From positions 130,137 through 194,136 of the forward strand of contig WJMO01000006.1 of NCBI GenBank assembly GCA_014727915.1: DNA of 64,000 bases. Direction: 5' to 3'. The translations under genes were made by a program, and so were the position numbers. Origin of the DNA: Candidatus Altiarchaeales archaeon (GTDB lineage: Archaea > Altiarchaeota > Altiarchaeia > IMC4 > SCGC-AAA252-I15). Positions 5,489-49,672 of the stretch are shown here, one piece after another. Position 1 is the stretch's first letter. Every line of letters begins with the position of its first letter. Below the pieces are notes generated by a model. That model did not search any database. It was given only the letters and a program-made list of their open reading frames with translations, and was not told the origin of the DNA.

Positions 5489-6349
5489 ATGAGGCGGGTG
5501 CCGTTCCTTGTGTTGTTGTTGGTTGCGGGTTCTGCTTCAGCCCAGCTTAACGGAAACTACAACATAGTCCTGGAGGAGAACGGCAACTCTCTCGTCACCC
5601 TTGTGATAAATGGGGTTGGCACCATAAACATCCCCCTGCCCTTGGATGTGCGAAGCCCCGCAGTCAGGGACGCTTTGTACGTGCGCGCGAGCAACGGAGT
5701 TGAGGTGAGCATAGACGCTGATGGCCAGTCCACTATCGTCTACAAGACCGCTCTGCTGACCTCAAGGGAGGGTGGCAGGTGGCGTTACATGATGGAACTG
5801 CCCCCATTGGAATCTGCCACGGTCGTTGTTTATGTGCCGGAGACCGCAGTCATAGCCGAGACCAGCCCGCCTGCGGCCATAAGCCATGTTGGGGAGTCCA
5901 AGAGCATGATCTGGAACCTCAAACCCGTTAATGACTCGGCCATAGTGGCCGAGTACTCGTTCTCCGGGTCCGCGGGACATATGACAGAAGAGGGTGGAGG
6001 CAGGGGGTTGGATCTGAAATATGTGCTGGCTGTGGTTTTAGCCCCCCTGGCCGCGACCGCTGTGATAATCTATCTTGTAAGGCGCAGGCAGAGGGGAGAG
6101 GGGTTGGTCCTAAGCGGTGGAAAGCAAAATGTGCTGAAGACGCTGACGGGGAACGAGATGAAGATAGTCAGCCTACTGCTCCAGAACATGGGGGGTATGC
6201 AGAGGAACAAGCTGGAGAAAACGTCGGGCATACCGAAGTCCAGCCTTGCCTCGTCCCTCTACAACCTCGAGCAGAGGAAGATCATAAGGGTCGACAAGAG
6301 TTATGCGGTCCACTATGTCGAGCTGACCGAGTGGTTCAAGAGCCTCTAA
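5489..6349 (+). CDS. Membrane-anchored winged-helix transcriptional regulator with extracytoplasmic domain
   Basis: Signal peptide, ~180-aa external domain, one TM, C-terminal wHTH (KSSLASSLYNLEQRKIIRVD); paralogs at 32398, 42876, 55295. Confidence 0.6.
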   Translation: MRRVPFLVLLLVAGSASAQLNGNYNIVLEENGNSLVTLVINGVGTINIPLPLDVRSPAVRDALYVRASNGVEVSIDADGQSTIVYKTALLTSREGGRWRYMMELPPLESATVVVYVPETAVIAETSPPAAISHVGESKSMIWNLKPVNDSAIVAEYSFSGSAGHMTEEGGGRGLDLKYVLAVVLAPLAATAVIIYLVRRRQRGEGLVLSGGKQNVLKTLTGNEMKIVSLLLQNMGGMQRNKLEKTSGIPKSSLASSLYNLEQRKIIRVDKSYAVHYVELTEWFKSL

Positions 6350-6842
6350 AAAAGGAAACGCCTGTTCCATACTGTTCGGTACTGTTCTATGCCGTCTTTA
6401 TAGCCTGTTCATGCGATTTAATCCTGTGCCAAACACCAGTCCATCACCAAAGGAGCCAACCACTCGGGGGGTGGTTGGGGACAGACTTTGGGGGGGTGAA
6501 GCAAAAAAGTCCGCACCTCCGATGAGAGGGGGTGCGGCAACCCTCAAAACCAAAAAAAAACTTGCGAGGTGAGGCAGATGAGCGCTTGCGTATCCAGCAT
6601 AGGACGCCAGTGGTATGTGGTGTCTGACGGGAGGGCGAAGGCCTTCAGGGACAGGTGGAATGCCATGTTCGAGGCTTGCATAATGAACAGGAGATGAAGG
6701 ACAGCATGAGATTGTGCGATTCCCTTTATAGGATGGGGGGCGGACGGGGAAGGCCGTGCAGGGGTGATAGGAATGCCGCGAGGATACAGGGGGAGATGCA
6801 CAGGATTATGTGCTCGATCATCTTCAAATCGTGATTTAATAG

Positions 6843-7919
6843 TTGAAGACGATTAGTGTTAAGATGCTTTACGGGATATCAACGGCGGTTAAGGCTTTGA
6901 AGTCTTCCTTTATCGTGTTGGCCGCGGCCGCGATCATGCTGGGTGTTCTGTGGGTGGCTTACCCAAACCTAAGGCCTGAGAGCCTGGATTTGAGGGTTAA
7001 CGAGGTTCTGACGGACCCTGGGAGCCTTGGGTGGGATGATGGTTTCATAGAGTTGCACAACACCGGAGATTCCAAGTTAAGCCTGGAGGGTTGGAGCGTG
7101 CGCACGGAGTCGGGTTCGATCAACCTCTTTGGGCATATCGAACCAGGAGGTTATAGGGCGGTCTATGGTGGTCTTTTCTCGGGGGATGTTGAGACTGTCT
7201 CTCTGGTGGACCCACGGGGCAGGGTGGCGGACAGGTACTCCCGTGTGGGGGGGTTGGAAGCTGTTTCAGTCGGCAGAAGCCCTGATGGTATGGGTTCGTG
7301 GACGGGTTTCGTCAACCCCACGCCAGGGGCTCCCAACACGGTGGTTGAGAAGACGCCGACCACGTTGGATACGCTTCCGAAGGTGGAGGTTCCCGATTGC
7401 ATGGAAGAGGAGTACGAGGCCGTCAGGGCTGACACGGCAGAGGAAGGTTTTGGGTCGGTTGATTTCTGCAGGGCATTCGAGGAGGAGATGAGTGATTTGA
7501 ACCCCTACGTCCTACGCAGGATAAACGAGATATCTGACGAGGAGATCAGGGAGGCTATTGCCTTAGGGGTGGCCGAACGGGCTGTCGCAAGAGAGCGGGA
7601 GGAAAGAATCGTGGGTTTGGTCGTGTCGGACGCCGAGCTCATGGACAGCATAAGAGGGCTGATAGGCGATGACCTCTACTCTCTGGGATTGGATGGGGAG
7701 CTCGCCAAGATGAACGGCAGGTTCAAGAGAATGCTGTTCGACATCATACTAAACGGTACCGGCGGCGAGAGAAGGGAGATGAGACTGCAGCTGAAGTACT
7801 ACCTTGAGTCCAGGGAGTCAGGAGGGAGAAAAACGCTGAAGTTCCGACCTGACGAGGTTAGGGTCATGTTATCCGATGGCAGGAGCCTGCAGGAGATTCT
7901 CGTCGAATTGGAGGTTTGA
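6843..7919 (+). CDS. Membrane-anchored lamin-tail-domain (LTD) protein
   Basis: N-terminal TM then LRVNEVLTDPG...GFIELHNTGDSKLSLEGWSV resembling the LTD signature; acidic C-terminal region. Confidence 0.5.
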   Translation: MKTISVKMLYGISTAVKALKSSFIVLAAAAIMLGVLWVAYPNLRPESLDLRVNEVLTDPGSLGWDDGFIELHNTGDSKLSLEGWSVRTESGSINLFGHIEPGGYRAVYGGLFSGDVETVSLVDPRGRVADRYSRVGGLEAVSVGRSPDGMGSWTGFVNPTPGAPNTVVEKTPTTLDTLPKVEVPDCMEEEYEAVRADTAEEGFGSVDFCRAFEEEMSDLNPYVLRRINEISDEEIREAIALGVAERAVAREREERIVGLVVSDAELMDSIRGLIGDDLYSLGLDGELAKMNGRFKRMLFDIILNGTGGERREMRLQLKYYLESRESGGRKTLKFRPDEVRVMLSDGRSLQEILVELEV

Positions 7920-7920
7920 T

Positions 7921-8172
7921 ATGAAGTCCGCTTTAGACTCTGCCGTTGTGACTGTCAAAGTGTTCGTTCTGTTATGCCTGTTCCCTGCGTTGTTGATGGT
8001 CAGGAAGGCATATCCTATGATTAGGTGGGATGTTGCGGTTCCCATGGTTTCGTACACACTACTCGTCTTCACAGTGATGGTCCTGTTCCTGCCGGCTGCG
8101 ATGCTGGCGTGCATGTACATTCTCTACGGTATCGGAAGGGAAAGCAAGCCCGTTAATAAAGTTGACGTGTAA
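7921..8172 (+). CDS. Small membrane protein (2 TM), hypothetical
   Basis: ATG at 7921 directly after upstream stop; hydrophobic helices; track ORF 7876 starts too early. Confidence 0.35.
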   Translation: MKSALDSAVVTVKVFVLLCLFPALLMVRKAYPMIRWDVAVPMVSYTLLVFTVMVLFLPAAMLACMYILYGIGRESKPVNKVDV

Positions 8173-8181
8173 TATTTCGCA

Positions 8182-8682
8182 ATGGAGATAAGCCAGGCCT
8201 CCGAGGAGGACAGGAGAGGAATCTACAGGCTGTATGAGCAGTTCAACCAGGACCGGGAGGAATCAGGGGCTGGGAGGCTTGGTTTCAAGTATTTGGACGG
8301 TGATTCGCCGTGGGCGGAGGAGCTCACAGACGACGAGTGCGTAACACTAGTGGCAAGGGAGAAGAACATCGTCTTAGGATTCATAACCATAAGGATACCC
8401 AGGTTCAACCCGTTCAGGAAGATAAAAAAGCTGGGGGAGGTCGACTTGATAGTGGTTGAGAGAAAGCTCAGGCGCAGGTCGATCGGGACCAACCTGTTCA
8501 AAAAGGCAGTCAAGTTACTGAAGGGAAAGCATGTCTCCCATGTGCTTTTGAACGTTAAGGTGGGGAACAAGGCCGCGCATTCTTTCTGGAAGAAGATGAA
8601 GTTCAAACCCATGACAGAGTCCATCTATGAGAGGAAGGACGGCGTCGAGGAGGGCCTGATATACATGATCAAGAAGATATAA
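8182..8682 (+). CDS. GNAT-family N-acetyltransferase
   Basis: 166 aa; acetyl-CoA-binding-like motif RRRSIGTNLFKKAV and GNAT-like layout. Confidence 0.65.
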   Translation: MEISQASEEDRRGIYRLYEQFNQDREESGAGRLGFKYLDGDSPWAEELTDDECVTLVAREKNIVLGFITIRIPRFNPFRKIKKLGEVDLIVVERKLRRRSIGTNLFKKAVKLLKGKHVSHVLLNVKVGNKAAHSFWKKMKFKPMTESIYERKDGVEEGLIYMIKKI

Positions 8683-8706
8683 AAAAAAGTGTTTTGGGGT
8701 GTTTTT

Positions 8707-8892
8707 TCAGGTTTCTTCCTTTTTTCGCGGCCTATGCAGTATTATCTTCCCGTTCACGGGTACTGCGTCGACTAGCACTGTTACGGTGCCGTTTCCGTCG
8801 AATGCCACCCCAATGTTCGTCCATCTGTCTTTTCCTGTTTCAGGGTCTGTCACAACCGTGCTAGCCCTCCAGTCAGGTGTCTGTCCTTTCAT
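8707..8892 (-). CDS. Hypothetical small protein
   Basis: 61-aa ORF with non-repetitive composition; could be co-transcribed with 8955..9254. Confidence 0.3.
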   Translation of the reverse strand: MKGQTPDWRASTVVTDPETGKDRWTNIGVAFDGNGTVTVLVDAVPVNGKIILHRPRKKEET

Positions 8893-8954
8893 TTTCTAAA
8901 AGACAATTCACTAGATGCGGAAAAAAAGAGGGGCCTAGAGCAGTGGAAAAGTTA

Positions 8955-9254
8955 TTAGTGGTGTTCTTCCCCTTGGTAGTCGGGATGGTGTTCTCCCCAG
9001 TATTCCTTCTCCCATTCCTCGTGTTCAGCCTCCCTTTGCTCCTTCTCCTCCACAGCCTTCTGAAAAGCCTCCGAGTCGGACAGGCCAGAAGTAAAGTCCA
9101 TGGCAGCACCGTGGAACACCAGCATCGCCACCAGCAAAACCAGGAATATCCCCGCGGCTATGGACAGTGATATCAAACCCAGCGCCAGCGCCAACATTAC
9201 CCCGACCGAAGTCGCCAAAACGGCCACGATAGAGACTCCAAGCTTGGATGCCAT
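8955..9254 (-). CDS. Small membrane protein with acidic His-rich tail
   Basis: 99 aa, two predicted TM helices, C-terminal EHEEWEKEYWGEHHPDYQGEEHH. Confidence 0.4.
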   Translation of the reverse strand: MASKLGVSIVAVLATSVGVMLALALGLISLSIAAGIFLVLLVAMLVFHGAAMDFTSGLSDSEAFQKAVEEKEQREAEHEEWEKEYWGEHHPDYQGEEHH

Positions 9255-9294
9255 GTAAGGATATTGTATTGAAGTAATAAGTAGGTTTTTAGTG

Positions 9295-10251
9295 TCATAT
9301 AAGGCCTAATAGCTTGCCCATGAAGAAAACATAGAAGAGGGTGAGCATCCACCCCTCCCACATCGTTACCTGCTTGTCCTGAACGATAAAGAAGGCGAGG
9401 ACTGTCGCTACCAGCATCAGGGGTATCCCCAACGCCAGCATCGACTCTGCAATAGCCAGGGTGCCGAACAAGCCGGACACCCCCATGACCAGGAACGAGT
9501 TGAATATGTTGCTCCCGAGTATGTTGCCCAAGGCCAGCTCTGCCTTTCCCTTCCGGGCCGCTGTGCAGGATACCGTAAGCTCGGGAAGACACGTGCCCAA
9601 TGCTATCGCACTCGCTGCCAGAACCCCCTTCCCTATGCCGAGGAACTCTGAGAGCACGACAACGGATTCGATTGTGTACTTCGCGCCCACGTAGATGAAC
9701 AACGCGCTCAACGCCAATGTCACCCACGTGAATTGCGTTATCCTGACCTTCTTGGCCTCCTTCTCCAGCTCCTTGACTTCGGGGCTCTTCTTCCTCTTCT
9801 CAACCGCGAAAGTATAGCCCACATATATCAAGGCACCTGCGAGGGACAGGAAAGCCTCCGGCCGGGTGAAGACCCCATCGTAGGACATCAACGCCAGGAG
9901 GAAGGCTGAGGCTGCGAATATTGGAAGGTCAACGTGTATCACCTCGAAGGTAACGTCCATCTTCTTCGCCAATATGGCGACTATGCCGAGTATTAGGAAT
10001 ATGTTCGCGATGTTGGAGCCGACCACCGTGCCGGAAACTATCTCCGAGCTGCCGTTTAGGACCGCTATCACGGATGATACCATCTCGGGCAGGGATGTGC
10101 CCACGCTGACTATCGTGACACCCACTATGAAGGCGGGAACACCGTAGAAAAGGCCTATCTTCTCGGCTGCGTCAGTGAAGTGCTCCGAAGATTTCACAAG
10201 AACGAAAAGGCTCGAAGCGAACACAACAACCCACAACAGCAGGTCTAGCAT
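9295..10251 (-). CDS. Na+/Ca2+ exchanger family (CaCA) antiporter
   Basis: 318 aa; two alpha-repeat signatures GTSLPEMVSSV and GTCLPELTVS. Confidence 0.8.
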   Translation of the reverse strand: MLDLLLWVVVFASSLFVLVKSSEHFTDAAEKIGLFYGVPAFIVGVTIVSVGTSLPEMVSSVIAVLNGSSEIVSGTVVGSNIANIFLILGIVAILAKKMDVTFEVIHVDLPIFAASAFLLALMSYDGVFTRPEAFLSLAGALIYVGYTFAVEKRKKSPEVKELEKEAKKVRITQFTWVTLALSALFIYVGAKYTIESVVVLSEFLGIGKGVLAASAIALGTCLPELTVSCTAARKGKAELALGNILGSNIFNSFLVMGVSGLFGTLAIAESMLALGIPLMLVATVLAFFIVQDKQVTMWEGWMLTLFYVFFMGKLLGLI

Positions 10252-10282
10252 GATTAATAATCGGGAGACAATAAAATATACG

Positions 10283-11380
10283 ATGGAAGAGGGCTCGGCA
10301 GCGGGTATTTTTCGCGTCTTCTATGATGTGATCCTGAGACCAGGGGAGACCTTGCGCCTGCAAAAGGGGCGTTCCACCTGGAAGAAGGGTTTAACCGCCC
10401 ACTTGGCCGCGGCTGCGGTGATGATATTCTTCCACCTGCACAGGCTGCTATATTTCGAGGATGGGCCCAGCGCATTGGTTGGGGTTTCAGCTTTCGCAAT
10501 GGCATATCTGGCATATTCCTTTTTGCAGCTTTCAGGGGTCTTGATAGCCCATCTTATCTCCAGATTGTTCGGGGGGCGGGGTAGACTTGTTGAGATGCTC
10601 TGGCTGACTGGAACCTATGCTGTGCCCTTGGCTTCCGCAGCCGTTGCCGTGGGAATGCTATCCAATATGTCACTATGGTTCATGGCCATAAACATACCTC
10701 TCCTGGCCTTCGCACTGTGCCTTGACATGATCGCCATAGAGGAAGCCCACGGTCTTTCAAGACCCAAGAGCGTTGGTGCTGTGTTATCTTCTTTCCTGAT
10801 GAAGTTCATAATATTCGCTATGGTAGCGTTCTCCGCGTACTCTGCCAGCCTTATGGCATTAAATTCGGGTTTCATGGGTTTGGACCGTGCGGTGAACGCC
10901 AACAACGTGGAGATATTGGATGTCGGTCAGGCATCGGATACGATAGAGTCTGGGGGATTGGCCTTCCACATGCCAGGGGGGTGGGTCGCGGATAGGGATT
11001 CCAAGGCCCTGAGACTGTTCGGTTACAGGTACTACGTGAAGGGCGATGCTGTTATTATGATTGCGGAGGGAGGCATCATCAGCGGGCTCCTTCCAAGTGA
11101 CGGTCAAGAGTACACTGGCGAATCCTGCAGGTCCATCGAGTTCGGCATGGCCTCGGAGCCGGGGGTGAAAGCAGCCGAGTACGTGGAATACGGGCTAGTT
11201 AGGGGTTGTGAGGCGAGGATGCCCGGGGGGGACGGCGGGGTGCAGATAATATTCCAGGGTGTTGTCTGCGAAGGCCATCCGATAACTTTGACAGTGGTAG
11301 CCCCGGACGACTCCAGCATTTCCAGCGAGGAGGCGGTGTCAGACTACCTGGATCTCATGGAGAGCATATCGTGCGTGTGA
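10283..11380 (+). CDS. Membrane protein with C-terminal soluble domain, hypothetical
   Basis: Track ORF starts at 10175 but overlaps the divergent CaCA start; ATG at 10283 or later is more plausible; several TM helices. Confidence 0.45.
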   Translation: MEEGSAAGIFRVFYDVILRPGETLRLQKGRSTWKKGLTAHLAAAAVMIFFHLHRLLYFEDGPSALVGVSAFAMAYLAYSFLQLSGVLIAHLISRLFGGRGRLVEMLWLTGTYAVPLASAAVAVGMLSNMSLWFMAINIPLLAFALCLDMIAIEEAHGLSRPKSVGAVLSSFLMKFIIFAMVAFSAYSASLMALNSGFMGLDRAVNANNVEILDVGQASDTIESGGLAFHMPGGWVADRDSKALRLFGYRYYVKGDAVIMIAEGGIISGLLPSDGQEYTGESCRSIEFGMASEPGVKAAEYVEYGLVRGCEARMPGGDGGVQIIFQGVVCEGHPITLTVVAPDDSSISSEEAVSDYLDLMESISCV

Positions 11381-40332: not shown

Positions 40333-41496
40333 TTAAGTGAACATGCTCAGGCTCGTCTGTACGTTATGAAGGTTCTCCCTCAGGAGAAGAGACTCTCTCT
40401 CATAGGTCTCAATAGGCAGGGTCAGCTTTCCCAAAGCCTGGTCAAGCGCCTCTATGAGGGTGTTATGCTCTGTTGGCTTGCCTTTCACCGCCGCCCGGAC
40501 GTTCTCGCGCACATTGAAAACTCCCAGAGGGACGTAGCCGGGGTAGGCTTCCCTGAGTATTATCGCTCCTGCCTGGATCTTCTCTCTGTGCAGCTGCTCC
40601 AACACAGCCATCTTGCAGCTGTAGTAGCATCCGCCCACGCAACTGTATCCTCTCTTGCCGAGGTTGGTCTCATGGTCTCCGAAGGTGTGGGTCCTGCCGC
40701 CCAAGACTTTGATGAAGGACTCAGTCCACTCGTACTGCCATGCCGTAGGCAGCAGAATCACCTGGTAGCTGTTGTTGAGGCTCTGGTGCCCGTAGACCCG
40801 GTAGCAGTCTAGGATGTCATTTTGCCTGACCTCCTCAAGGAGGTGGTTTCCGATCGTCGAATCACATGCTGTTATCGACCACCTGGTGGGCACCATCCTC
40901 CGGTTCCTCTTCAACCCGAACGCGCCTACAGACAGCGCCTTCTGCATCTTGGAGAAATGCGTCTCACGCCTGTGAAGGTCCAGTATGGCTTCTTTCGCCT
41001 TCAAGTCCGTGTCATAGTATGCTTTCTCAAGGTCCCTGTCCCAGCTGCCCTCCTCTACCCTGTATTCTTCGAGGAACGCGCTGGGTCCGTGAGGTGTGTG
41101 CTCGTCGCTCAACCTCAATCCCCTGGGCTGGTTCCTGAACTTCACCTCTCCCATGCTTGAACGCTTTGAGAGTGCGGTCTCCTGGAGTTTCACCGCGAGC
41201 CTGTCCTCAACGTCCGTGACATCCAGCTCCCGCTTGCCCCTGACCAGGTTAACCCTGTAGTTTATTATCTCATCCTGCTCGTATCCGCCTGGCACCCACT
41301 CTTCCGGGCTGTCATATATTTCCGTCGCCTCATGTTCAGCTGCCATCATGGGACCGGCGTAGACTTTGGGATAGTTCCAGGAGCCGATGAACACCGAAGG
41401 GGGAGTGCTGCCCTCCATCTCCCTGCCGACGTCAACGCTCCTGATCCTGGTCTGAGCCGTAAGCTGCTTCAGAAAATAGCCCTTACCCTTCAGCAT
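40333..41496 (-). CDS. Hypothetical protein (possibly Nre-like DNA-repair-associated family)
   Basis: 387 aa; PSVFIGSWNYPKVYAGP block and later Cys cluster SCVGGCYYSC; family assignment is from memory only. Confidence 0.45.
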   Translation of the reverse strand: MLKGKGYFLKQLTAQTRIRSVDVGREMEGSTPPSVFIGSWNYPKVYAGPMMAAEHEATEIYDSPEEWVPGGYEQDEIINYRVNLVRGKRELDVTDVEDRLAVKLQETALSKRSSMGEVKFRNQPRGLRLSDEHTPHGPSAFLEEYRVEEGSWDRDLEKAYYDTDLKAKEAILDLHRRETHFSKMQKALSVGAFGLKRNRRMVPTRWSITACDSTIGNHLLEEVRQNDILDCYRVYGHQSLNNSYQVILLPTAWQYEWTESFIKVLGGRTHTFGDHETNLGKRGYSCVGGCYYSCKMAVLEQLHREKIQAGAIILREAYPGYVPLGVFNVRENVRAAVKGKPTEHNTLIEALDQALGKLTLPIETYERESLLLRENLHNVQTSLSMFT

Positions 41497-43719: not shown

Positions 43720-46314
43720 ATGTTCAATATGCGGTGGTTGGTTTTATTCATAGTGTTGGCGCTATTATCAGGCTTCACGACTGGCAGGCAGGATCAGGGC
43801 ATGATGCCCGACCTGGGAAAGCAGAAGCCCGGCGCTGGCATCCCTGAGGTAGAGACCGGCCCCGGCAGCCAGCCGGCAGACCTGCCGGAGGTGCCCGGGG
43901 AGCGGGCGCTCATCTCCGGCGTGCCACACTATTATCAGGCGACCATGGAGGGGGAGATGTGCCCCAACCTCCTGCCCCTGCTCCTGGGAAGCCCCGTGCC
44001 CGCAGGCTACAAGGACTATAAGACCGGGTGCGGGCCGGTTGCTGCAGTGGCTGTTATGGGGTGGTGGGAGCGCCGGGGGGTAGACGGCCTGCTGCTGCAT
44101 ACGGTGGAGGGGGACGGCCTGCCCCAGGACACGATAATAGAGATAGGCCAGTACGAGTACTTGAGGAGGCTGCCGGACTGTGACAGCGGCCAGGCGGCGG
44201 TGACACCCTCAAGGTTCGAGACAGGATTCCAGAACTACCTGGACGACCACGGCAGCGTGGAATTCACGGTCACAAAATACAAGATAACCAAGGACAGCGA
44301 CTTCGACCAGATATGGGATATGGTCAAGGAGGAGATAGACAACGGCCGGCCCCTCGTATACCTGCTCAGGCATGACGGTCTGCGGCAGGACGCAGCCAAC
44401 GACCAGGACAACCACAAGCTCGCAGACCACTACATCGTCATAGTAGGATATGATACGGTGGACAACCAGCGTGTTCTGGTGGGCCAGTACAACTTCGGCT
44501 ACGTCGGCTACTACGACCACTACTTCACCCACTGGCTACCCCTCGAGGTCGGAGACTACACAACAGCCTATCCAAAGTACCACCTGTTCGCCATCCGGCC
44601 TGTCTCAGAGCCGGACTACATGGGAGAGTGCAGCGGGTGGCTGCTGAACACCACCAGGTTCCACGAGGCAGACCCCTACGACGGCGTCCAGTCGGAGTAC
44701 TTCAGGCCCTACCAGGCGGAGTTCACCAACGGCAGCACATGGAAGAAGACCAACGTGTTGGAGAAGCAGGACGGCATCTGCTTCGTGGCCAGGTGGATAG
44801 ACTCCGACGAGGACGGCATCTATGACGGGGAGGACAACTGCCCCGACATCTACAACCCAGGCCAGGAGAACGGCGACGGCGACGATTACGGGGACATATG
44901 CGACTACCCGGACATCGTGTTAGAATACGGTTACAGGGACTATTCCGAGGTGGAGTTGGGTGACGGGCGGGCGAGGATATCATTCACCATCGACACGAAC
45001 CTCACCAACCAGGGAACAGACCCCATTGTAGCCGGGACTTCACTGGTTGTGAAGTGGGTGCAGGAGGCAGTGACAACAGGGGGTGAGAAGGTAACAGCCG
45101 ATGAAGATGGCGAGATTGTGCCTTTGAAGATAACCCAGGCCAAAGGAAGTAAGAAGCTGATGATCATGGAGAACATCCCGGACGAGGATGAAGGCGGCAG
45201 CGGGCCTGAACTCATTTTGAACGTGGACGGCATGTTGGACATGCCGTTGGAACGCAGCCAGCAGGTGACTTTGTCTGCCGGGCTGTTGGAAGGCGGGTCT
45301 TATAGCCTGGACTCCCAGACGTTCTCGTTGATATTGGACGAGGGCGAATGCGCCACTGTCACCCACACGATATACACCATCGATTCGGTGGATGAGATGG
45401 ACGGCCATGAGGACAATGAAGTGGTTGAAGTCCCCTACAACAAGCTCAGCGACTGCTTCGGAGTCGCTGGAATAGACCCTGACGATGTTATAGACAGCAT
45501 ACTCGGGCCTCAAGCTTCCGTGGACGGCGCGGACACCCCTGAGTTGGACAAGGACATCGCCGAAGCCGGCATAGACCAGATAATAGGGATCCTGCAGACC
45601 ATAGGACCGGAGGGCGGTACGAACCTCTACCACGACCATTTGACCGTTGACTTCCCCGCGGGCGCTGTTGACAGGCAGCTGCCGTTGAAGGTGAAGATAT
45701 TCAGGGGTAGTATGGCGGGGTTCGATCCCGTGGGGGAAGTATATGACATCCAGTTCCCGCCGGGGCAGAGGCTTAACAAGCCCGTGACATTGTCCATAGG
45801 CTATGGGGGTGAAGACCTCGCCGGGGTTGAGGAGGGTTCCCTGGCTGTTCACACTTTCTCCCAGGGCAGGTGGACTGCCCTGCCATCCGAGGTTGACACG
45901 GCATATGATGTTGTGTCAACCCAGCTGAACCATTTCACCCTATACGCACTCGCACCATTAGGTCAGGGTTCTAAGACGCCGCCGAAGCCGTTCAACAAGT
46001 CGACGGCTAAGCCATTCGACAAGCCGGATCTTGGGAAGCCAAATAGATCAGAGATGCGCGGTTTCAAAGGCCCGGAGGGTAAAACGGGCGGAGAGAAGGC
46101 TTTGCTGTTCAAGCACATGAAATCCGGCGAGCAGCTTGTGAAGGTGAAGAACGTGACAAAGGACGGCCGCCCCGCCTACCAGGTGCAGAAAAAACGCAGA
46201 GCCAGGATACTAGGCATAGTTCCTGTTGATGTGAACGTGGAGACGACAGTCGACGCCAACAGCGGGGAGAAACTGGGGGAGAATAAGCCCTGGTGGAACT
46301 TCCTGGCATTCTAA
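43720..46314 (+). CDS. Large secreted protein: N-terminal C39-like papain-fold peptidase domain, thrombospondin type-3-like Ca-binding repeats, extended beta-rich region
   Basis: Signal peptide; catalytic-type Cys (YKTGCGPVAAVAVMGWW) and His (ADHYIVIVGYD); DSDEDGIYDGEDNCPDIYNPGQENGDGDDYGDICD. Confidence 0.65.
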   Translation: MFNMRWLVLFIVLALLSGFTTGRQDQGMMPDLGKQKPGAGIPEVETGPGSQPADLPEVPGERALISGVPHYYQATMEGEMCPNLLPLLLGSPVPAGYKDYKTGCGPVAAVAVMGWWERRGVDGLLLHTVEGDGLPQDTIIEIGQYEYLRRLPDCDSGQAAVTPSRFETGFQNYLDDHGSVEFTVTKYKITKDSDFDQIWDMVKEEIDNGRPLVYLLRHDGLRQDAANDQDNHKLADHYIVIVGYDTVDNQRVLVGQYNFGYVGYYDHYFTHWLPLEVGDYTTAYPKYHLFAIRPVSEPDYMGECSGWLLNTTRFHEADPYDGVQSEYFRPYQAEFTNGSTWKKTNVLEKQDGICFVARWIDSDEDGIYDGEDNCPDIYNPGQENGDGDDYGDICDYPDIVLEYGYRDYSEVELGDGRARISFTIDTNLTNQGTDPIVAGTSLVVKWVQEAVTTGGEKVTADEDGEIVPLKITQAKGSKKLMIMENIPDEDEGGSGPELILNVDGMLDMPLERSQQVTLSAGLLEGGSYSLDSQTFSLILDEGECATVTHTIYTIDSVDEMDGHEDNEVVEVPYNKLSDCFGVAGIDPDDVIDSILGPQASVDGADTPELDKDIAEAGIDQIIGILQTIGPEGGTNLYHDHLTVDFPAGAVDRQLPLKVKIFRGSMAGFDPVGEVYDIQFPPGQRLNKPVTLSIGYGGEDLAGVEEGSLAVHTFSQGRWTALPSEVDTAYDVVSTQLNHFTLYALAPLGQGSKTPPKPFNKSTAKPFDKPDLGKPNRSEMRGFKGPEGKTGGEKALLFKHMKSGEQLVKVKNVTKDGRPAYQVQKKRRARILGIVPVDVNVETTVDANSGEKLGENKPWWNFLAF

Positions 46315-47118: not shown

Positions 47119-48516
47119 CTATTTCCGGCCGTTCCAGCAGTATAGGCAGAGTTTCTCCCTGGGCAGGCCGATCGCCTCTATCATGTCTTCGAGGCGCTGG
47201 TACATTAGGGACGTGGAGCCGAGGTCATTGTTTATCCACTCTACCATCTTGGCGTATTCGTCGGAGTCGGAATCCAGGTATTTGTCCACGTTCTTTTTTA
47301 TGTCTCCTTCCAGGCTTTTTATCGCCTTCCGGGCGGCCAGCTCCTCCAGGGTCTTCGTGGAAAGGTTGTACTTGCAGGGGAACATAAGCGGGGGACAGGC
47401 CACTCTGATGTGGATCTCCCTGGCTCCGCTGTTGTATAGTTTGTTGAGGGTGTAGTTCTTCAGCTGTGTGCCGCGGACGATGCTGTCCTCGCATATCACG
47501 ATGCTCTTGCCCTTTATGATCTTCTCGTTGGGTATGAGCTTCATCAAGGCTATCTGGTCCCTTGTCTCCTGGGAAGGGGGAGTGTAGCTGCGTCCATATC
47601 CGGGTGTGTACTTGACCATGGGGCGCCTGAAGGGAACTCCAGCGCCGATCGCGTAACCGATGGCATGCGCCACCCCGGAATCGGGTATGCCCGCGGCCAT
47701 ATCAGCCTTCACACTATCGCGTGCTGCCAGGGCCTTCCCGCACCGTTCCCTGACCTCCTCCGCGTTTATTCCCTCGTAGTCAGATGCCGGGAAGCCCGTG
47801 TATATCCACATGAAAGAGCATATCCGATTGTCTTCCCCCTCTTTTTTAACCGTCTTAACGCCCTTTTCAGTGAGCAGGACTATCTCGTCCGGTCCGACGT
47901 GCTTCTTCGCCTTCAAACCCAGGTTGGAGAAGGCGCATGACTCGGATGTGACCGCGTGGAATCCATCGCCTTCGCCGACTACGAGGGGAAACCTGCCTTT
48001 CCGGTCGCGGGCAGCGTATACTCCGTCCTTGTTCAGTAGCAGCAGTGTTATAGAGCCTTGGATCTGGTCGTACATCTTGCCTATGCCGTCGACGATGTCA
48101 TCGCCTTTGCTTATCATTGTTGCCACCAGCTCGGCCGGGTTCACTCCGTCCTTGGAGTACTCTGAGAATGTCTCCCCGTTCTCGATCAGCTCGCTGGCTA
48201 TTTCAGACTTGTTCTCTATGAGCCCGTTTGTGCAGAGGGCGTAGGTGCCGAACTTCGACTCGAATACGAGGGGCTGCTCGTTGCTGTCGCTTATGACGCC
48301 GATGCCCGCTTTGCCCTCTATGTCCTGGAGGTCCTGGTAGAACTTCCCCTTGAACTGGCTCTGCTGTATGTCGTGTATCTTCTTCGTTATCCTGTTCTCG
48401 CCGTTGAGGACTGCGAGGCCCCCGTACTGTGTTCCAAGGTGGCTGTGGTAGTCCACGCCCACGAATAGTTTGCTCGTGCAATCCGCCCCGCCTATGACTC
48501 CGAACAATCCACTCAT
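47119..48516 (-). CDS. Amidophosphoribosyltransferase-like protein (PurF family) with Ser in place of the N-terminal nucleophile Cys
   Basis: Ntn-amidotransferase + PRTase layout; PRPP motif SIVICEDSIVRGTQ; N-terminus MSGLFGVIG where PurF has MCG. Confidence 0.75.
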   Translation of the reverse strand: MSGLFGVIGGADCTSKLFVGVDYHSHLGTQYGGLAVLNGENRITKKIHDIQQSQFKGKFYQDLQDIEGKAGIGVISDSNEQPLVFESKFGTYALCTNGLIENKSEIASELIENGETFSEYSKDGVNPAELVATMISKGDDIVDGIGKMYDQIQGSITLLLLNKDGVYAARDRKGRFPLVVGEGDGFHAVTSESCAFSNLGLKAKKHVGPDEIVLLTEKGVKTVKKEGEDNRICSFMWIYTGFPASDYEGINAEEVRERCGKALAARDSVKADMAAGIPDSGVAHAIGYAIGAGVPFRRPMVKYTPGYGRSYTPPSQETRDQIALMKLIPNEKIIKGKSIVICEDSIVRGTQLKNYTLNKLYNSGAREIHIRVACPPLMFPCKYNLSTKTLEELAARKAIKSLEGDIKKNVDKYLDSDSDEYAKMVEWINNDLGSTSLMYQRLEDMIEAIGLPREKLCLYCWNGRK

Positions 48517-48590
48517 CCTAAAGGAGAAGCTATTGGACAGATAGTTTAAAAAGTAATGTAATAAACCCTGACGCATAATCTCTTCCCAAT

Positions 48591-49163
48591 ATGAGAATGT
48601 CCATTGTTTTGCTGGTTATTATGTCGGGTTGCCTCGGAGGCGGGCCCGACGTGGAGGCCGAGCCGACGACGACTACCATCACCCTGCCCGAGGACTGCGG
48701 TTTAGACGTTCCAGTCAGGCTGCAGATGGATGGGGACTGGTGCGGGGTGGCGGTATCCCAGATGATCCTGGAATACTATGGGTTATACGCGGACCAGAAG
48801 ACGCTCTCGGAGGAGATAGTCGGGGACCGTGGAGGCTCCTTAACGCATATGAAGGACGTGCTTGCAGGCTATGGGCTGGAGGTCGAGGAGAAGAACTATG
48901 GTTTGGAGGGTGTCAGCGAATTGGAGAAGGCAGTCTGCGGGGAGAGGTCGCCCGTAATCGTCTTGCAGAGGATGGGCTTCGAAAACCCGAACAGCCACTA
49001 CAGGATCGTCGCAGGCTTCGACAGGAGATACGCTTATGTAATCGACCCATACTATGGGCGGGTGAGATTCACCAGGAACGAGTTCAGGGAGCTGTGGGAG
49101 TTCAACGACCCGAACAGGGTGGACAACACCGCCTTGATAGTCAGGGGAGGGGTGAGGGTTTGA
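48591..49163 (+). CDS. C39-like papain-fold peptidase-domain lipoprotein (catalytic residues present)
   Basis: Lipobox SGC; Q-x5-C (LQMDGDWCGVAV) and His (SHYRIVAGFD). Confidence 0.6.
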   Translation: MRMSIVLLVIMSGCLGGGPDVEAEPTTTTITLPEDCGLDVPVRLQMDGDWCGVAVSQMILEYYGLYADQKTLSEEIVGDRGGSLTHMKDVLAGYGLEVEEKNYGLEGVSELEKAVCGERSPVIVLQRMGFENPNSHYRIVAGFDRRYAYVIDPYYGRVRFTRNEFRELWEFNDPNRVDNTALIVRGGVRV

Positions 49164-49672
49164 TGGAGTGTAGGGGGGCTCTGGTGTTGTTGATGGTTTT
49201 CAGCGGTTGCATCGGCGTAGAGGATGGGTTGCCGGAGGAATGCGGGTTGAAGATCGAATTCCATGGCGTGGGTGATGCCGCCTTCGCCCGGGCAGTGTTG
49301 GAATACTACGGGATAAACAGGAGCTTGGAGGTGTTGGAAGGAGACCTAGCCATGGAAGCTGGAACAGGCCGGTTAGACCGGATGAAGTCTCTGCTGAGGA
49401 TGCACGGACTCCACGTTGAAGAGGGTAAGGCCATGGACTGGGAGGAGTTGGGCGTTCACGTCTGCGAAGAGGGCAATACAGCCATATTATTTCACAGAGA
49501 GGGAGAGACTTTCATGGCTGTCCTGGGTTTCGAAGGCGGCAGAGTATACGCCGAAGACCAGAGGGAGGGTCTGGTCAGGTTCACCAGGGATGAGTTCATG
49601 CTTTCAACATTGCAGGATGGTAAGTTGGTCGTTCATGGTAGGCTCTTGGAGGGTAAGCCACTCTGCATCTGA
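49163..49672 (+). CDS. C39-like domain lipoprotein paralog lacking catalytic Cys and His (predicted inactive)
   Basis: ATG overlaps upstream stop (TGATG); lipobox SGC; Gly/Asp at Cys position, Thr at His position; conserved LVRFTRDEF tail. Confidence 0.5.
   Translation: MECRGALVLLMVFSGCIGVEDGLPEECGLKIEFHGVGDAAFARAVLEYYGINRSLEVLEGDLAMEAGTGRLDRMKSLLRMHGLHVEEGKAMDWEELGVHVCEEGNTAILFHREGETFMAVLGFEGGRVYAEDQREGLVRFTRDEFMLSTLQDGKLVVHGRLLEGKPLCI

What the first reader, a model, noticed from the sequence alone, without database searches (positions are those of the whole stretch)
47119..48516. PurF-like amidotransferase with Ser replacing the N-terminal nucleophile Cys
Both the Ntn-hydrolase and PRTase domains look intact, but the N-terminus reads MSGLFG where canonical PurF has MCG. 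No in-frame Cys start is available. Glutamine hydrolysis would be impaired, so this may be an ammonia-dependent or regulatory paralog.
Basis: partly seen in the sequence, partly recalled or inferred. Interest (0 to 1): 0.45.

Follow-up and report, generated by a model that had tools for sequence, protein, structure and literature searches.

The report
Cysteine-less PurF paralogue, purine pathway
This archaeal gene is a real member of a large, strongly conserved but unstudied branch of the first purine-synthesis enzyme (PurF) that has lost the cysteine and arginine needed to use glutamine, so it most likely makes or controls the first purine intermediate without glutamine.

Summary
Window 47119-48516 (minus strand) encodes a 465-aa full-length PurF homologue starting MSGLFG. 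Ser2 aligns with the Cys1 nucleophile of B. subtilis PurF, and no in-frame Cys lies upstream. It is not an error. In 75 species-level orthologues the position is Ser 60, Gly 14, Thr 1, never Cys.

Ser is not a conserved substitute nucleophile. Gly replaces it repeatedly. Arg26 is Leu/Met, Asn102 and Asp127 are variable, and Arg72-Tyr73 are missing. The PRPP-binding loop, flexible loop and four Fe-S cysteines are kept. The predicted fold matches PurF (TM 0.83).

The clade is monophyletic and better conserved than canonical PurF from the same genomes. It occurs in at least 596 species, nearly all known only as metagenome assemblies or single cells. A Gly-type relative occurs in cultured Muribaculum. 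In relatives the gene sits in purine operons, next to a Cys-type purF in 13 of 84 loci.

Best reading, untested: a glutamine-independent PRPP aminotransferase. A regulatory partner of PurF is the main rival. Cys-less archaeal PurF' was noted in 2011, but I found no functional study of any such protein.

The parts
47119..48516 (-). CDS of the Cys-less PurF-like protein (465 aa plus TAG stop)
   Evidence: ORF list and translation. 100% identical to P0001, an NCBI Altiarchaeales MAG protein. Full-length match to PurF in PDB and TIGR01134.
48511..48516 (-). Start codon ATG and Ser2 codon AGT, at the position of the Cys1 nucleophile of PurF
   Evidence: Sequence. Alignment to 1ao0. Orthologues have Ser 60, Gly 14, Thr 1, Cys 0, and Ser is always encoded by AGY.
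47827..48516 (-). N-terminal Ntn-fold (former glutaminase) domain, residues 1-230
   Evidence: Pfam GATase_7 at residues 75-196. AF2 strand 3-9 and a confident fold. Mean pairwise identity of 55% within the clade, so the domain is under selection.
48430..48441 (-). H26-L27-G28-T29, replacing the H-R-G-Q motif of PurF (Arg26 lost)
   Evidence: Group comparison: all 11 canonical sequences have Arg; the clade has Leu 64 / Met 11. Among representatives, Cys1 always comes with Arg26 (14/14).
48286..48291 (-). S76/D77 junction, where Arg72-Tyr73 and about 8 residues of the PurF glutamine loop are missing
   Evidence: Alignments. The deletion is also found in some Cys-bearing relatives, so it is a trait of the wider clade.
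47122..47826 (-). Type I phosphoribosyltransferase domain and C-terminal region, residues 231-465
   Evidence: Alignment to PurF residues about 233-408. Shared invariant residues D279 S280 G281, R309, K326.
47464..47490 (-). PRPP-binding loop E343-D-S-I-V-R-G-T-Q351 (canonical D-D-S-I-V-R-G-T-T)
   Evidence: Invariant in 75 orthologues. The last Thr is Gln in all 75.
47539..47619 (-). Flexible catalytic loop, residues 300-326 (KYTPGYGRSYTPPSQETRD...)
   Evidence: Only segment with pLDDT below 50 in the model. K302 and R309 are kept. Canonical T-F-I is S-Y-T here.
47818..47820 (-). Cys233, equivalent to [4Fe-4S] ligand Cys236 of B. subtilis PurF
   Evidence: Cys in 74 of 75 orthologues and in all canonical sequences. 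Its role as a ligand is taken from my knowledge of the B. subtilis structure.
47374..47376 (-). Cys381, equivalent to [4Fe-4S] ligand Cys382
   Evidence: Cys in 74 of 75 orthologues.
47137..47148 (-). C457-x-x-C460 (LCLYCW), equivalent to the C-terminal CxxC cluster ligands
   Evidence: Invariant in both groups.
47242..47325 (-). Clade-specific insertion of about 25 residues (398-425, AIKSLEGD...YAKMVEW)
   Evidence: These columns are gapped in canonical PurFs. Conserved A398, I399, E403, G404, Y413, M424. Helical in the model.
48545..48552 (-). TTTTTAAA, a possible archaeal TATA box about 32 nt upstream of the ATG (inference only)
   Evidence: Read from the sequence. It lies downstream of the alternative ATG at 48576, which favours 48516 as the start. 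Not tested.

Best explanation
Shown here:
- The gene encodes a genuine, strongly conserved member of a large monophyletic branch of the PurF family.
- In this branch the two-domain PurF fold, the PRPP-binding loop, the flexible catalytic loop and the four Fe-S cysteines are kept.
- The glutamine-hydrolysing apparatus is gone. The N-terminal Cys is a small residue (Ser here; Gly, Ala or Thr elsewhere). Arg26 is Leu/Met. The oxyanion Asn and the Asp that binds glutamine's amino group are no longer conserved.
- Relatives sit in purine-biosynthesis operons, often right beside an ordinary Cys-type purF.

Inferred mechanism: after removal of Met1 the protein binds PRPP in its intact phosphoribosyltransferase site. 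It transfers the phosphoribosyl group to ammonia that does not come from its own N-domain. The ammonia would be free NH3/NH4+, or conceivably come from a partner. The product is phosphoribosylamine for PurD. The enzyme would then be a glutamine-independent first step of purine synthesis, working beside or instead of glutamine-dependent PurF. The still-conserved N-domain would serve as a structural lid or allosteric module, not as a glutaminase.
For: Glutamine site lost:
- Cys1 is S60/G14/T1; Arg26 is L64/M11; Arg72-Tyr73 are absent; Asn102 is N20/S19/A14/V9/T6; Asp127 is variable. All are invariant or nearly so in the 11 neighbouring canonical PurFs.
- Among 80 full-length cluster representatives, Cys always co-occurs with Arg26 (14/14), and Cys-less forms mostly have Leu/Met.

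PRTase site kept: D279-S280-G281, K302, R309 and (E/D)-D-S-I-V-R-G-T are invariant in 75 orthologues.

Fold intact: pLDDT 87, disordered only in the flexible loop as expected for PurF; TM 0.83 to 1ao0.

Under strong selection: 69.5% mean identity against 56.7% for canonical PurFs from the same genomes, higher in 35 of 45 pairs. The N-domain is 55% identical.

Purine linkage in 84 related loci:
- Cys-type purF in 13 loci, purM in 12, purD in 6, purB in 5, purL in 5, guaA in 5.
- In Omnitrophota L009/L052/L042 and Hadarchaeota L060/L068 the gene lies between purL/purQ or purD and purM, the slot purF occupies in the B. subtilis pur operon (my recollection of that operon), with no Cys-type purF within 6 kb.
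- In Muribaculum intestinale a Gly-type relative directly follows purL.

Precedent: per Brown et al. 2011 (PMC3261824), citing Mei & Zalkin 1989, E. coli PurF Cys1-to-Ser/Ala mutants lose glutamine-dependent activity but can still use ammonia as the nitrogen source.
Against: - No biochemical or genetic data exist for any member.
- A Cys-type purF is adjacent in 13 of 84 loci, so the protein is at least sometimes redundant with, or dependent on, the real enzyme.
- I could not test whether any genome has only the Cys-less form.
- The N-domain keeps many clade-specific invariant polar residues (D22, Y23, H48, Q54, N126, N198). A mere lid would not obviously need them.
- The loop residues Phe-Ile, which I recall as lining the ammonia channel in canonical PurF, are Tyr-Thr here, and Tyr73 is gone. 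The route for ammonia is therefore unclear.
- purQ is present in the same operons, so these organisms have not abandoned glutamine-dependent amidotransfer in general.
- In this window the gene has no purine neighbours at all.
Confidence: 0.45

Rival explanations
1. Non-catalytic or regulatory partner of canonical PurF. The Cys-less subunit would assemble with Cys-type PurF, which normally forms dimers or tetramers. It would tune activity, stability or nucleotide feedback. This would resemble HisZ with HisG, or inactive PyrC' with aspartate transcarbamoylase.
For: Tight same-strand adjacency to a Cys-type purF in 13 of 84 loci, sometimes with gaps of only tens of bases (L027, L022, L001). Higher conservation than the canonical enzyme and a conserved N-domain, as expected for a protein constrained by interfaces. 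A clade-specific 25-residue insertion and many clade-specific invariant surface-type residues. Crenarchaeal PurF' also sits beside purF.
Against: In 71 of 84 loci no Cys-type purF lies within 6 kb. In several purine operons the Cys-less gene alone sits between purL/purQ or purD and purM. The complete PRPP-binding and flexible-loop residues are invariant, which a pure scaffold would not need, although a PRPP or nucleotide sensor might. No interaction data exist.
Confidence: 0.25
2. A phosphoribosyltransferase with a different substrate. The remodelled N-domain and flexible loop would bind a nucleophile other than ammonia, or a different amide donor. The product would be something other than phosphoribosylamine in nucleotide metabolism.
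For: Clade-specific invariant residues cluster in the former glutamine-site motifs (D22-Y23-H24-S25-H26-L27-G28-T29; Q54-F55-K56-x-K58-F59) and in the flexible loop (Y303 insertion, T304, S310, P313). The PRPP loop ends in Gln instead of Thr in all 75 orthologues. There are recurrent operon links to carB and to DUF1846, a family of unknown function.
Against: The strongest and most varied gene linkage is to early purine genes (purF, purM, purD, purL). No candidate reaction is missing from the pathway that I can name. Some Cys-bearing relatives share the GTQ loop and the missing Arg-Tyr, so these traits do not by themselves signal a new chemistry.
Confidence: 0.15
3. A Ser-nucleophile Ntn amidohydrolase. 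Ser1, exposed after Met removal, would replace Cys1 as the nucleophile, as in penicillin acylase. The enzyme would still hydrolyse glutamine or another amide.
For: Ser is the commonest residue among the 75 close orthologues (60/75), always directly after Met, and is followed by an invariant Gly. Ser and Thr nucleophiles exist in other Ntn hydrolases (general knowledge).
Against: Gly replaces Ser in 14 of 75 orthologues, arising at least two or three times on the tree. Across cluster representatives the position is Gly 26, Ser 16, Ala 11, Thr 6. The oxyanion Asn and the glutamine-binding Arg and Asp are not conserved. E. coli PurF C1S has no detectable glutamine-dependent activity (PMC3261824).
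Confidence: 0.05
4. Artefact: a sequencing error (TGT to AGT), a wrong start codon, or a decaying pseudogene.
For: AGT is one substitution away from TGT.
Against: No Cys lies in frame upstream. There are 75 orthologues without Cys from many phyla. An identical NCBI protein exists. The ORF is intact and highly conserved. Correlated loss of Arg26 cannot be a one-base error.
Confidence: 0.01

Closest known systems
Glutamine PRPP amidotransferase PurF, B. subtilis type with [4Fe-4S] cluster (EC 2.4.2.14; TIGR01134; PDB 1ao0/1gph)
   Same: Same two-domain fold over the full length (E 3.6e-57; TM 0.83). Same PRPP loop, flexible loop Lys/Arg and four cluster cysteines. Relatives lie in purine operons.
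   Different: About 29-32% identity. Below the family cutoff (208.6 against 350 bits). No Cys1, no Arg26, no Arg72-Tyr73; Asn102 and Asp127 not conserved. No propeptide. PRPP loop ends in Gln. Has a 25-residue C-terminal insertion.
Crenarchaeal PurF' (Brown, Hoopes, White & Sarisky 2011, Biol Direct 6:63; e.g. SSO0633 beside purF SSO0632)
   Same: A PurF paralogue lacking the N-terminal Cys (Ala or Val, some marked 'ser'). It is encoded beside purF and other pur genes. It was proposed, without testing, to be ammonia-dependent.
   Different: Described only in Crenarchaeota. Whether it belongs to the same clade as the protein studied here could not be tested, because no PurF' sequence was obtainable. 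Ala- and Val-type representatives do exist 32-38% from the window protein, but their taxonomy is unknown.
Mlab_0150 of Methanocorpusculum labreanum (same paper)
   Same: [quoted passage not shown]
   Different: Reported as a recent duplicate most similar to the organism's own purF. The clade here is ancient and only about 30% identical to co-resident PurFs. Not compared directly.
Asparagine-synthetase-B-like enzymes without Cys1 (beta-lactam synthetase, carbapenam synthetase); pseudoenzyme partners such as HisZ
   Same: A class II amidotransferase fold kept as a non-glutaminase domain while the synthetase or transferase half works (first group). A catalytically dead paralogue used as a regulatory subunit (second group). 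Both are analogies recalled from general knowledge.
   Different: Different families and reactions. No homology beyond the Ntn fold (AsnB-type hits are weak).

Membership tests
PurF, glutamine PRPP amidotransferase (TIGR01134, EC 2.4.2.14) | N-terminal Cys nucleophile exposed by Met removal or propeptide cleavage | tested here: not met
   Ser2 aligns with Cys1 and no Cys lies upstream. Orthologues have S60/G14/T1 and no Cys.
PurF, glutamine PRPP amidotransferase (TIGR01134, EC 2.4.2.14) | Glutamine-site residues Arg26, Arg72/73, Asn101/102-Gly, Asp127 | tested here: not met
   Leu27, deletion, variable Asn and variable Asp. Only the Gly is kept.
PurF, glutamine PRPP amidotransferase (TIGR01134, EC 2.4.2.14) | Score at or above the curated equivalog cutoff | tested here: not met
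   208.6 bits against a cutoff of 350.
PurF, glutamine PRPP amidotransferase (TIGR01134, EC 2.4.2.14) | Ntn domain plus type I PRTase domain, with PRPP loop and flexible loop | tested here: met
   Full-length alignment and TM 0.83. E-D-S-I-V-R-G-T, K302 and R309 conserved. Loop 300-326 has low pLDDT.
PurF, glutamine PRPP amidotransferase (TIGR01134, EC 2.4.2.14) | Four Cys ligands of the [4Fe-4S] cluster (B. subtilis-type subfamily) | tested here: met
   C233, C381, C457 and C460 are conserved in both groups. Cluster binding itself was not tested.
PurF, glutamine PRPP amidotransferase (TIGR01134, EC 2.4.2.14) | Phosphoribosylamine synthesis from PRPP | not testable with these tools
   Needs an enzyme assay or complementation.
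Cys-less PurF paralogues (PurF' sensu Brown et al. 2011) | PurF homologue lacking the N-terminal Cys | tested here: met
Cys-less PurF paralogues (PurF' sensu Brown et al. 2011) | Co-occurs with, and lies close to, a Cys-type purF and other pur genes | tested here: inconclusive
   Met in relatives: 13 of 84 loci have a Cys-type purF within 6 kb, and many have purM/purD/purL. Not met in this window, which has no pur genes in 64 kb.
Cys-less PurF paralogues (PurF' sensu Brown et al. 2011) | Sequence membership in the crenarchaeal PurF' cluster | not testable with these tools
   No PurF' sequence could be retrieved. The paper's supplement gives only locus tags and tree images.
Ntn hydrolases with a Ser/Thr nucleophile | Conserved N-terminal nucleophile and oxyanion-hole residue across the family | tested here: not met
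   Gly in 14 of 75 orthologues. Gly or Ala in 37 of 80 representatives. The oxyanion Asn is variable.
Anti-phage defence PRTase effectors | Match to a known defence-system model | tested here: not met
   No PADLOC hit.

The most novel reading that the evidence does not exclude
In much of the anaerobic microbial world the committed first step of purine synthesis would be carried out, or gated, by an ancient glutamine-independent PurF-like enzyme class. This would cover Altiarchaeota, Hadarchaeota, Thermoplasmatota, Omnitrophota, Planctomycetota, Syntrophales and gut Bacteroidales such as Muribaculum. Databases currently label all of these proteins 'amidophosphoribosyltransferase'. In some lineages it would be the only PurF.
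Probability: 0.3. Interest if true: 0.7.

Novelty: new variant of a known kind. Interest (0 to 1): 0.5.

Why it matters
PurF is the textbook glutamine-dependent, feedback-regulated entry point of purine synthesis. If this clade makes phosphoribosylamine without glutamine, or is an obligatory partner of PurF, several things follow. Metabolic reconstructions of many uncultured anaerobes and of gut Bacteroidales would mis-state the nitrogen source and the regulation of purine synthesis. The database name 'amidophosphoribosyltransferase' would be misleading for thousands of sequences. The question left open in 2011 about archaeal PurF' would also become testable, because a relative exists in a cultured organism (Muribaculum intestinale).

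Tried and rejected
Rejected:
- Sequencing error or wrong start. Orthologues and the upstream frame rule it out.
- Ser as a replacement nucleophile. Gly, Ala and Thr variants occur and the oxyanion Asn is variable.
- Defence-system PRTase. No PADLOC hit.
- I first took the deletion of the Arg72-Tyr73 glutamine loop and the GTQ ending of the PRPP loop as signs of glutaminase loss. Seven Cys- and Arg26-bearing representatives also lack Arg-Tyr, and four of them have GTQ. These are traits of the wider clade, and only the Cys1/Arg26 loss is specific.

Found nothing:
- Second purF or other pur genes in the window.
- Riboswitch or other Rfam element upstream in 12 bacterial loci. Only a tRNA was found.
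- Literature on this clade. Six searches returned only Brown et al. 2011.

Could not be done:
- Looking up the window's own contig. P0001 is not in the contig index.
- Genome-wide co-occurrence of the Cys-less and Cys-type genes. Only one genome-contig scan is allowed and loci reach only +-10 kb.
- Comparison with crenarchaeal PurF' sequences. The supplement holds only locus tags.
- Taxonomy of the Ala- and Val-type representatives. No names are on record.
- Inspecting the AF2 model around residue 2. Coordinates are not exposed.
Full report
**1. The observation**

The gene lies on the minus strand at window 47119-48516. It starts ATG AGT GGA TTG (M-S-G-L) at 48516 and ends with TAG at 47119-47121. 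The mechanical ORF begins 20 codons earlier, at an ATG at 48576. The in-frame translation between the upstream stop codons and MSG contains no cysteine, and homologues start at M-X-G. A TTTTTAAA motif at 48545-48552, about 32 nt upstream of the ATG and downstream of the alternative start, could be an archaeal TATA box. That is inference only.

HMMER against PDB sequences gives B. subtilis PurF (1ao0) at E 3.6e-57 over residues 3-406. Query G3 aligns with chain G2, so Ser2 sits at the Cys1 position. TIGR01134 (purF) aligns end to end, but at 208.6 bits against a curated cutoff of 350. Pfam sees only GATase_7. The protein is identical to NCBI MBD3388369.1 / MBD3416433.1, annotated 'amidophosphoribosyltransferase [Candidatus Altiarchaeales archaeon]'.

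**2. It is a family trait, not an error**

A search of 5.8 billion proteins hit the 8000-candidate ceiling. Homologues 59-74% identical come from Altiarchaeota, Thermoplasmatota, Omnitrophota, Elusimicrobiota and others, and all that I read begin MSG or MTG.

They include Methanosarcinales, Hadarchaeota, Planctomycetota, Syntrophales, Clostridia, Gemmatimonadota and Verrucomicrobiota.

In 75 species-level orthologues with a complete N-terminus, the residue after Met is Ser 60, Gly 14, Thr 1 and Cys 0. Ser is always encoded by AGC or AGT and never by TCN. Gly uses GGN and Thr uses ACT. All of these are one step from each other and from Cys TGY.

**3. What is kept and what is lost**

I aligned the 75 orthologues with 11 Cys-type PurFs encoded next to some of them and with B. 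subtilis PurF.

Lost:
- Cys1.
- Arg26, now Leu 64 / Met 11.
- Arg72-Tyr73, absent together with about eight following residues.
- Asn102, now N20/S19/A14/V9/T6.
- Asp127, now variable.

Kept:
- Gly103.
- D279-S280-G281, K302 and R309.
- The PRPP loop (E/D)-D-S-I-V-R-G-T.
- Cysteines 233, 381, 457 and 460. Cys233 and Cys381 align with B. subtilis Cys236 and Cys382, and Cys457/Cys460 are invariant in the Cys-type neighbours too. I recall Cys236, Cys382, Cys437 and Cys440 as the [4Fe-4S] ligands of the B. subtilis enzyme.

Clade-specific invariants:
- D22, Y23, S25, T29, H48, Q54, F59, N126, N198, H284, R298.
- An inserted Y303.
- Gln351 in place of the last Thr of the PRPP loop.
- Two extra cysteines (C13, C342).
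- An insertion of about 25 residues at 398-425.

The AF2 model is confident (pLDDT 87, pTM 0.86). Only residues 300-326 are disordered, and these correspond to the PurF flexible loop. Foldseek's best PDB match is 1ao0 with TM 0.83. The fold is therefore intact and the transferase half looks functional, but the glutaminase site has been dismantled.

**4. Ser is not a substitute nucleophile**

On a neighbour-joining tree the clade is monophyletic and separate from the canonical neighbours. The Gly forms arise at least two or three times.

An exhaustive HMMER search of 1.84 billion cluster representatives gave 904 hits at E <= 1e-30. Among the 80 full-length representatives in the best 150, the Cys1 position is Gly 26, Ser 16, Cys 14, Ala 11, Thr 6 and other residues 7. 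Cys always comes with Arg26 (14/14). Cys-less forms mostly have Leu or Met there, and nearly all start M-X-G with no propeptide.

One caution applies. Seven Cys-bearing representatives also lack Arg72-Tyr73, and four of them share the GTQ loop. Those two features mark the wider clade. The correlated loss of Cys1 and Arg26 is the specific signal.

**5. Selection and context**

Across ten genomes that encode both forms, the Cys-less proteins are more conserved than the canonical ones. Mean identity is 69.5% against 56.7%, higher in 35 of 45 pairs. The two forms in the same genome are only 28-32% identical. The N-domain of the clade is 55% identical on average, so it is not decaying.

I clustered the neighbours across 84 related loci and confirmed identities with Pfam. 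A Cys-type purF lies on the same strand within 6 kb in 13 loci. Other linked genes are purM (12 loci), carB (8), DUF1846 (8), purD (6), purB (5), purL (5) and guaA (5).

Gene orders seen:
- Omnitrophota L009/L052: purB-purL-(LOG)-(purQ)-X-purM-purD, with no Cys-type purF nearby (X is the Cys-less gene).
- Omnitrophota L022/L027: both forms side by side.
- Hadarchaeota L060/L068: purD-X-purE-purB-folD-purM-purS-purL.
- Methanomassiliicoccales CP070739 (L001): X followed 90 nt later by a Cys-type purF reading KEQ-CGVAAI...LQHRGQE.
- Syntrophales: a housekeeping cluster, coaD-X-ispG-proS-relA.

A Gly-type relative (42% identical, 436 bits) occurs in cultured Muribaculum intestinale, directly after the large purL.

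In this window the gene has no purine context. It lies between genes for secreted peptidase C39-like proteins, near a Na+/H+ exchanger and an ABC transporter. The 64 kb contain no other purF or pur gene. No Rfam element lies upstream in 12 bacterial loci, and there is no defence-system match.

**6. Mechanism**

The sequence shows an intact PRPP-binding transferase joined to an Ntn-fold domain that cannot bind or attack glutamine in the PurF manner. According to Brown et al. [quoted passage not shown]

My preferred explanation (confidence about 0.45) is a glutamine-independent PRPP aminotransferase. It would make phosphoribosylamine from PRPP and external ammonia, with the N-domain retained as a lid or allosteric module.

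Rivals:
- A non-catalytic partner or regulator of Cys-type PurF (about 0.25). Tight adjacency, high conservation and the clade-specific insert favour it. Against it, the gene sits alone between purL/purQ or purD and purM in some operons, and its PRPP site is fully conserved.
- A transferase with a different nucleophile (about 0.15). The remodelled, invariant motifs in the former glutamine site and flexible loop suggest it, but no candidate reaction is evident.
- A Ser-Ntn hydrolase (about 0.05).
- An artefact (about 0.01).

These last two are disfavoured by the data above. None of these can be settled without an assay or a whole-genome census, and neither was available here.

**7. Comparison with what is known**

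The closest characterised family is B. subtilis-type PurF. The fold, PRPP site and cluster ligands match. The nucleophile, the glutamine site and the equivalog score do not. The protein should therefore not be filed as EC 2.4.2.14.

The closest described analogue is crenarchaeal PurF' (Brown et al. 2011). It lacks Cys, sits beside purF and was proposed to be ammonia-dependent, without testing. I could not obtain a PurF' sequence, so shared membership is untested. The same paper mentions Mlab_0150, a Ser-bearing recent duplicate, which does not fit an ancient clade. Six literature searches found nothing else.

**8. Verdict**

This is one member of a very large, ancient and slowly evolving Cys-less branch of PurF. 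Databases label these proteins as ordinary amidophosphoribosyltransferase, and I found no functional study of any of them. The Ser is incidental. The gene itself is an ordinary member of that branch. The branch is the interesting object, and it is now testable in cultured Bacteroidales. Interest 0.5; a new variant of a known kind.

Noticed in passing
L023 4456-5979 (DUF1846), 6001-7458, 7480-10713 (carB); L053 51-3997; also L012, L029, L035, L051, L028, L034: A DUF1846 protein (PF08903/PF20921, about 510 aa, unknown function) lies directly next to the Cys-less purF-like gene in 8 loci. carB is often in the same tight operon (gaps of 3-25 nt). This may be a lead to the function of DUF1846 in nucleotide metabolism.
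   Followed up: partly
L068 6001-7404 (Hadarchaeota): This orthologue has Gly at position 2. It has also lost all four Fe-S ligand cysteines (C233N, C381S, C457N, C460V), yet it sits inside a full pur cluster.
   Followed up: no
L009 4367-5059; L052 5203-5940: A LOG-family gene (PF03641, 'possible lysine decarboxylase'; members I recall as nucleotide phosphoribohydrolases) is embedded between purL and the Cys-less purF-like gene in Omnitrophota purine operons.
   Followed up: no
window 43720-46314, 48591-49163, about 49164-49672 (+ strand): The gene is flanked by secreted or lipoprotein-like proteins. The first two have peptidase C39-like domains. The 864-aa one also carries Asp-rich repeats of a calcium-binding type. 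The third was judged only by eye: its translation resembles the second, and it was not scanned.
   Followed up: partly
P0338, P0366, P0416, P0432 (cluster representatives): These are Cys1- and Arg26-bearing PurF relatives that lack Arg72-Tyr73 and have the GTQ PRPP loop. They look intermediate between canonical PurF and the Cys-less clade and could represent the ancestral state.
   Followed up: partly
window 48478-48480 (Cys13) and 47491-47493 (Cys342): Two cysteines are invariant in the Cys-less clade (74/75 and 75/75) where canonical PurFs have Ala and Val. Cys342 immediately precedes the PRPP loop. Their role is unknown.
   Followed up: no
L085 10001-11404 and neighbours (Syntrophales): In Syntrophales the gene lies in a conserved housekeeping run coaD-X-ispG-proS-relA/spoT-...-rph-rdgB (X is the Cys-less gene), next to the (p)ppGpp synthetase gene. 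E. coli PurF has been crystallised with ppGpp (PDB 6czf, listed).
   Followed up: no
window 40333-41496 (- strand): An archaeal Nre protein (PF04894/PF04895) is encoded about 6 kb from the gene. This is consistent with the archaeal origin of the window.
   Followed up: no
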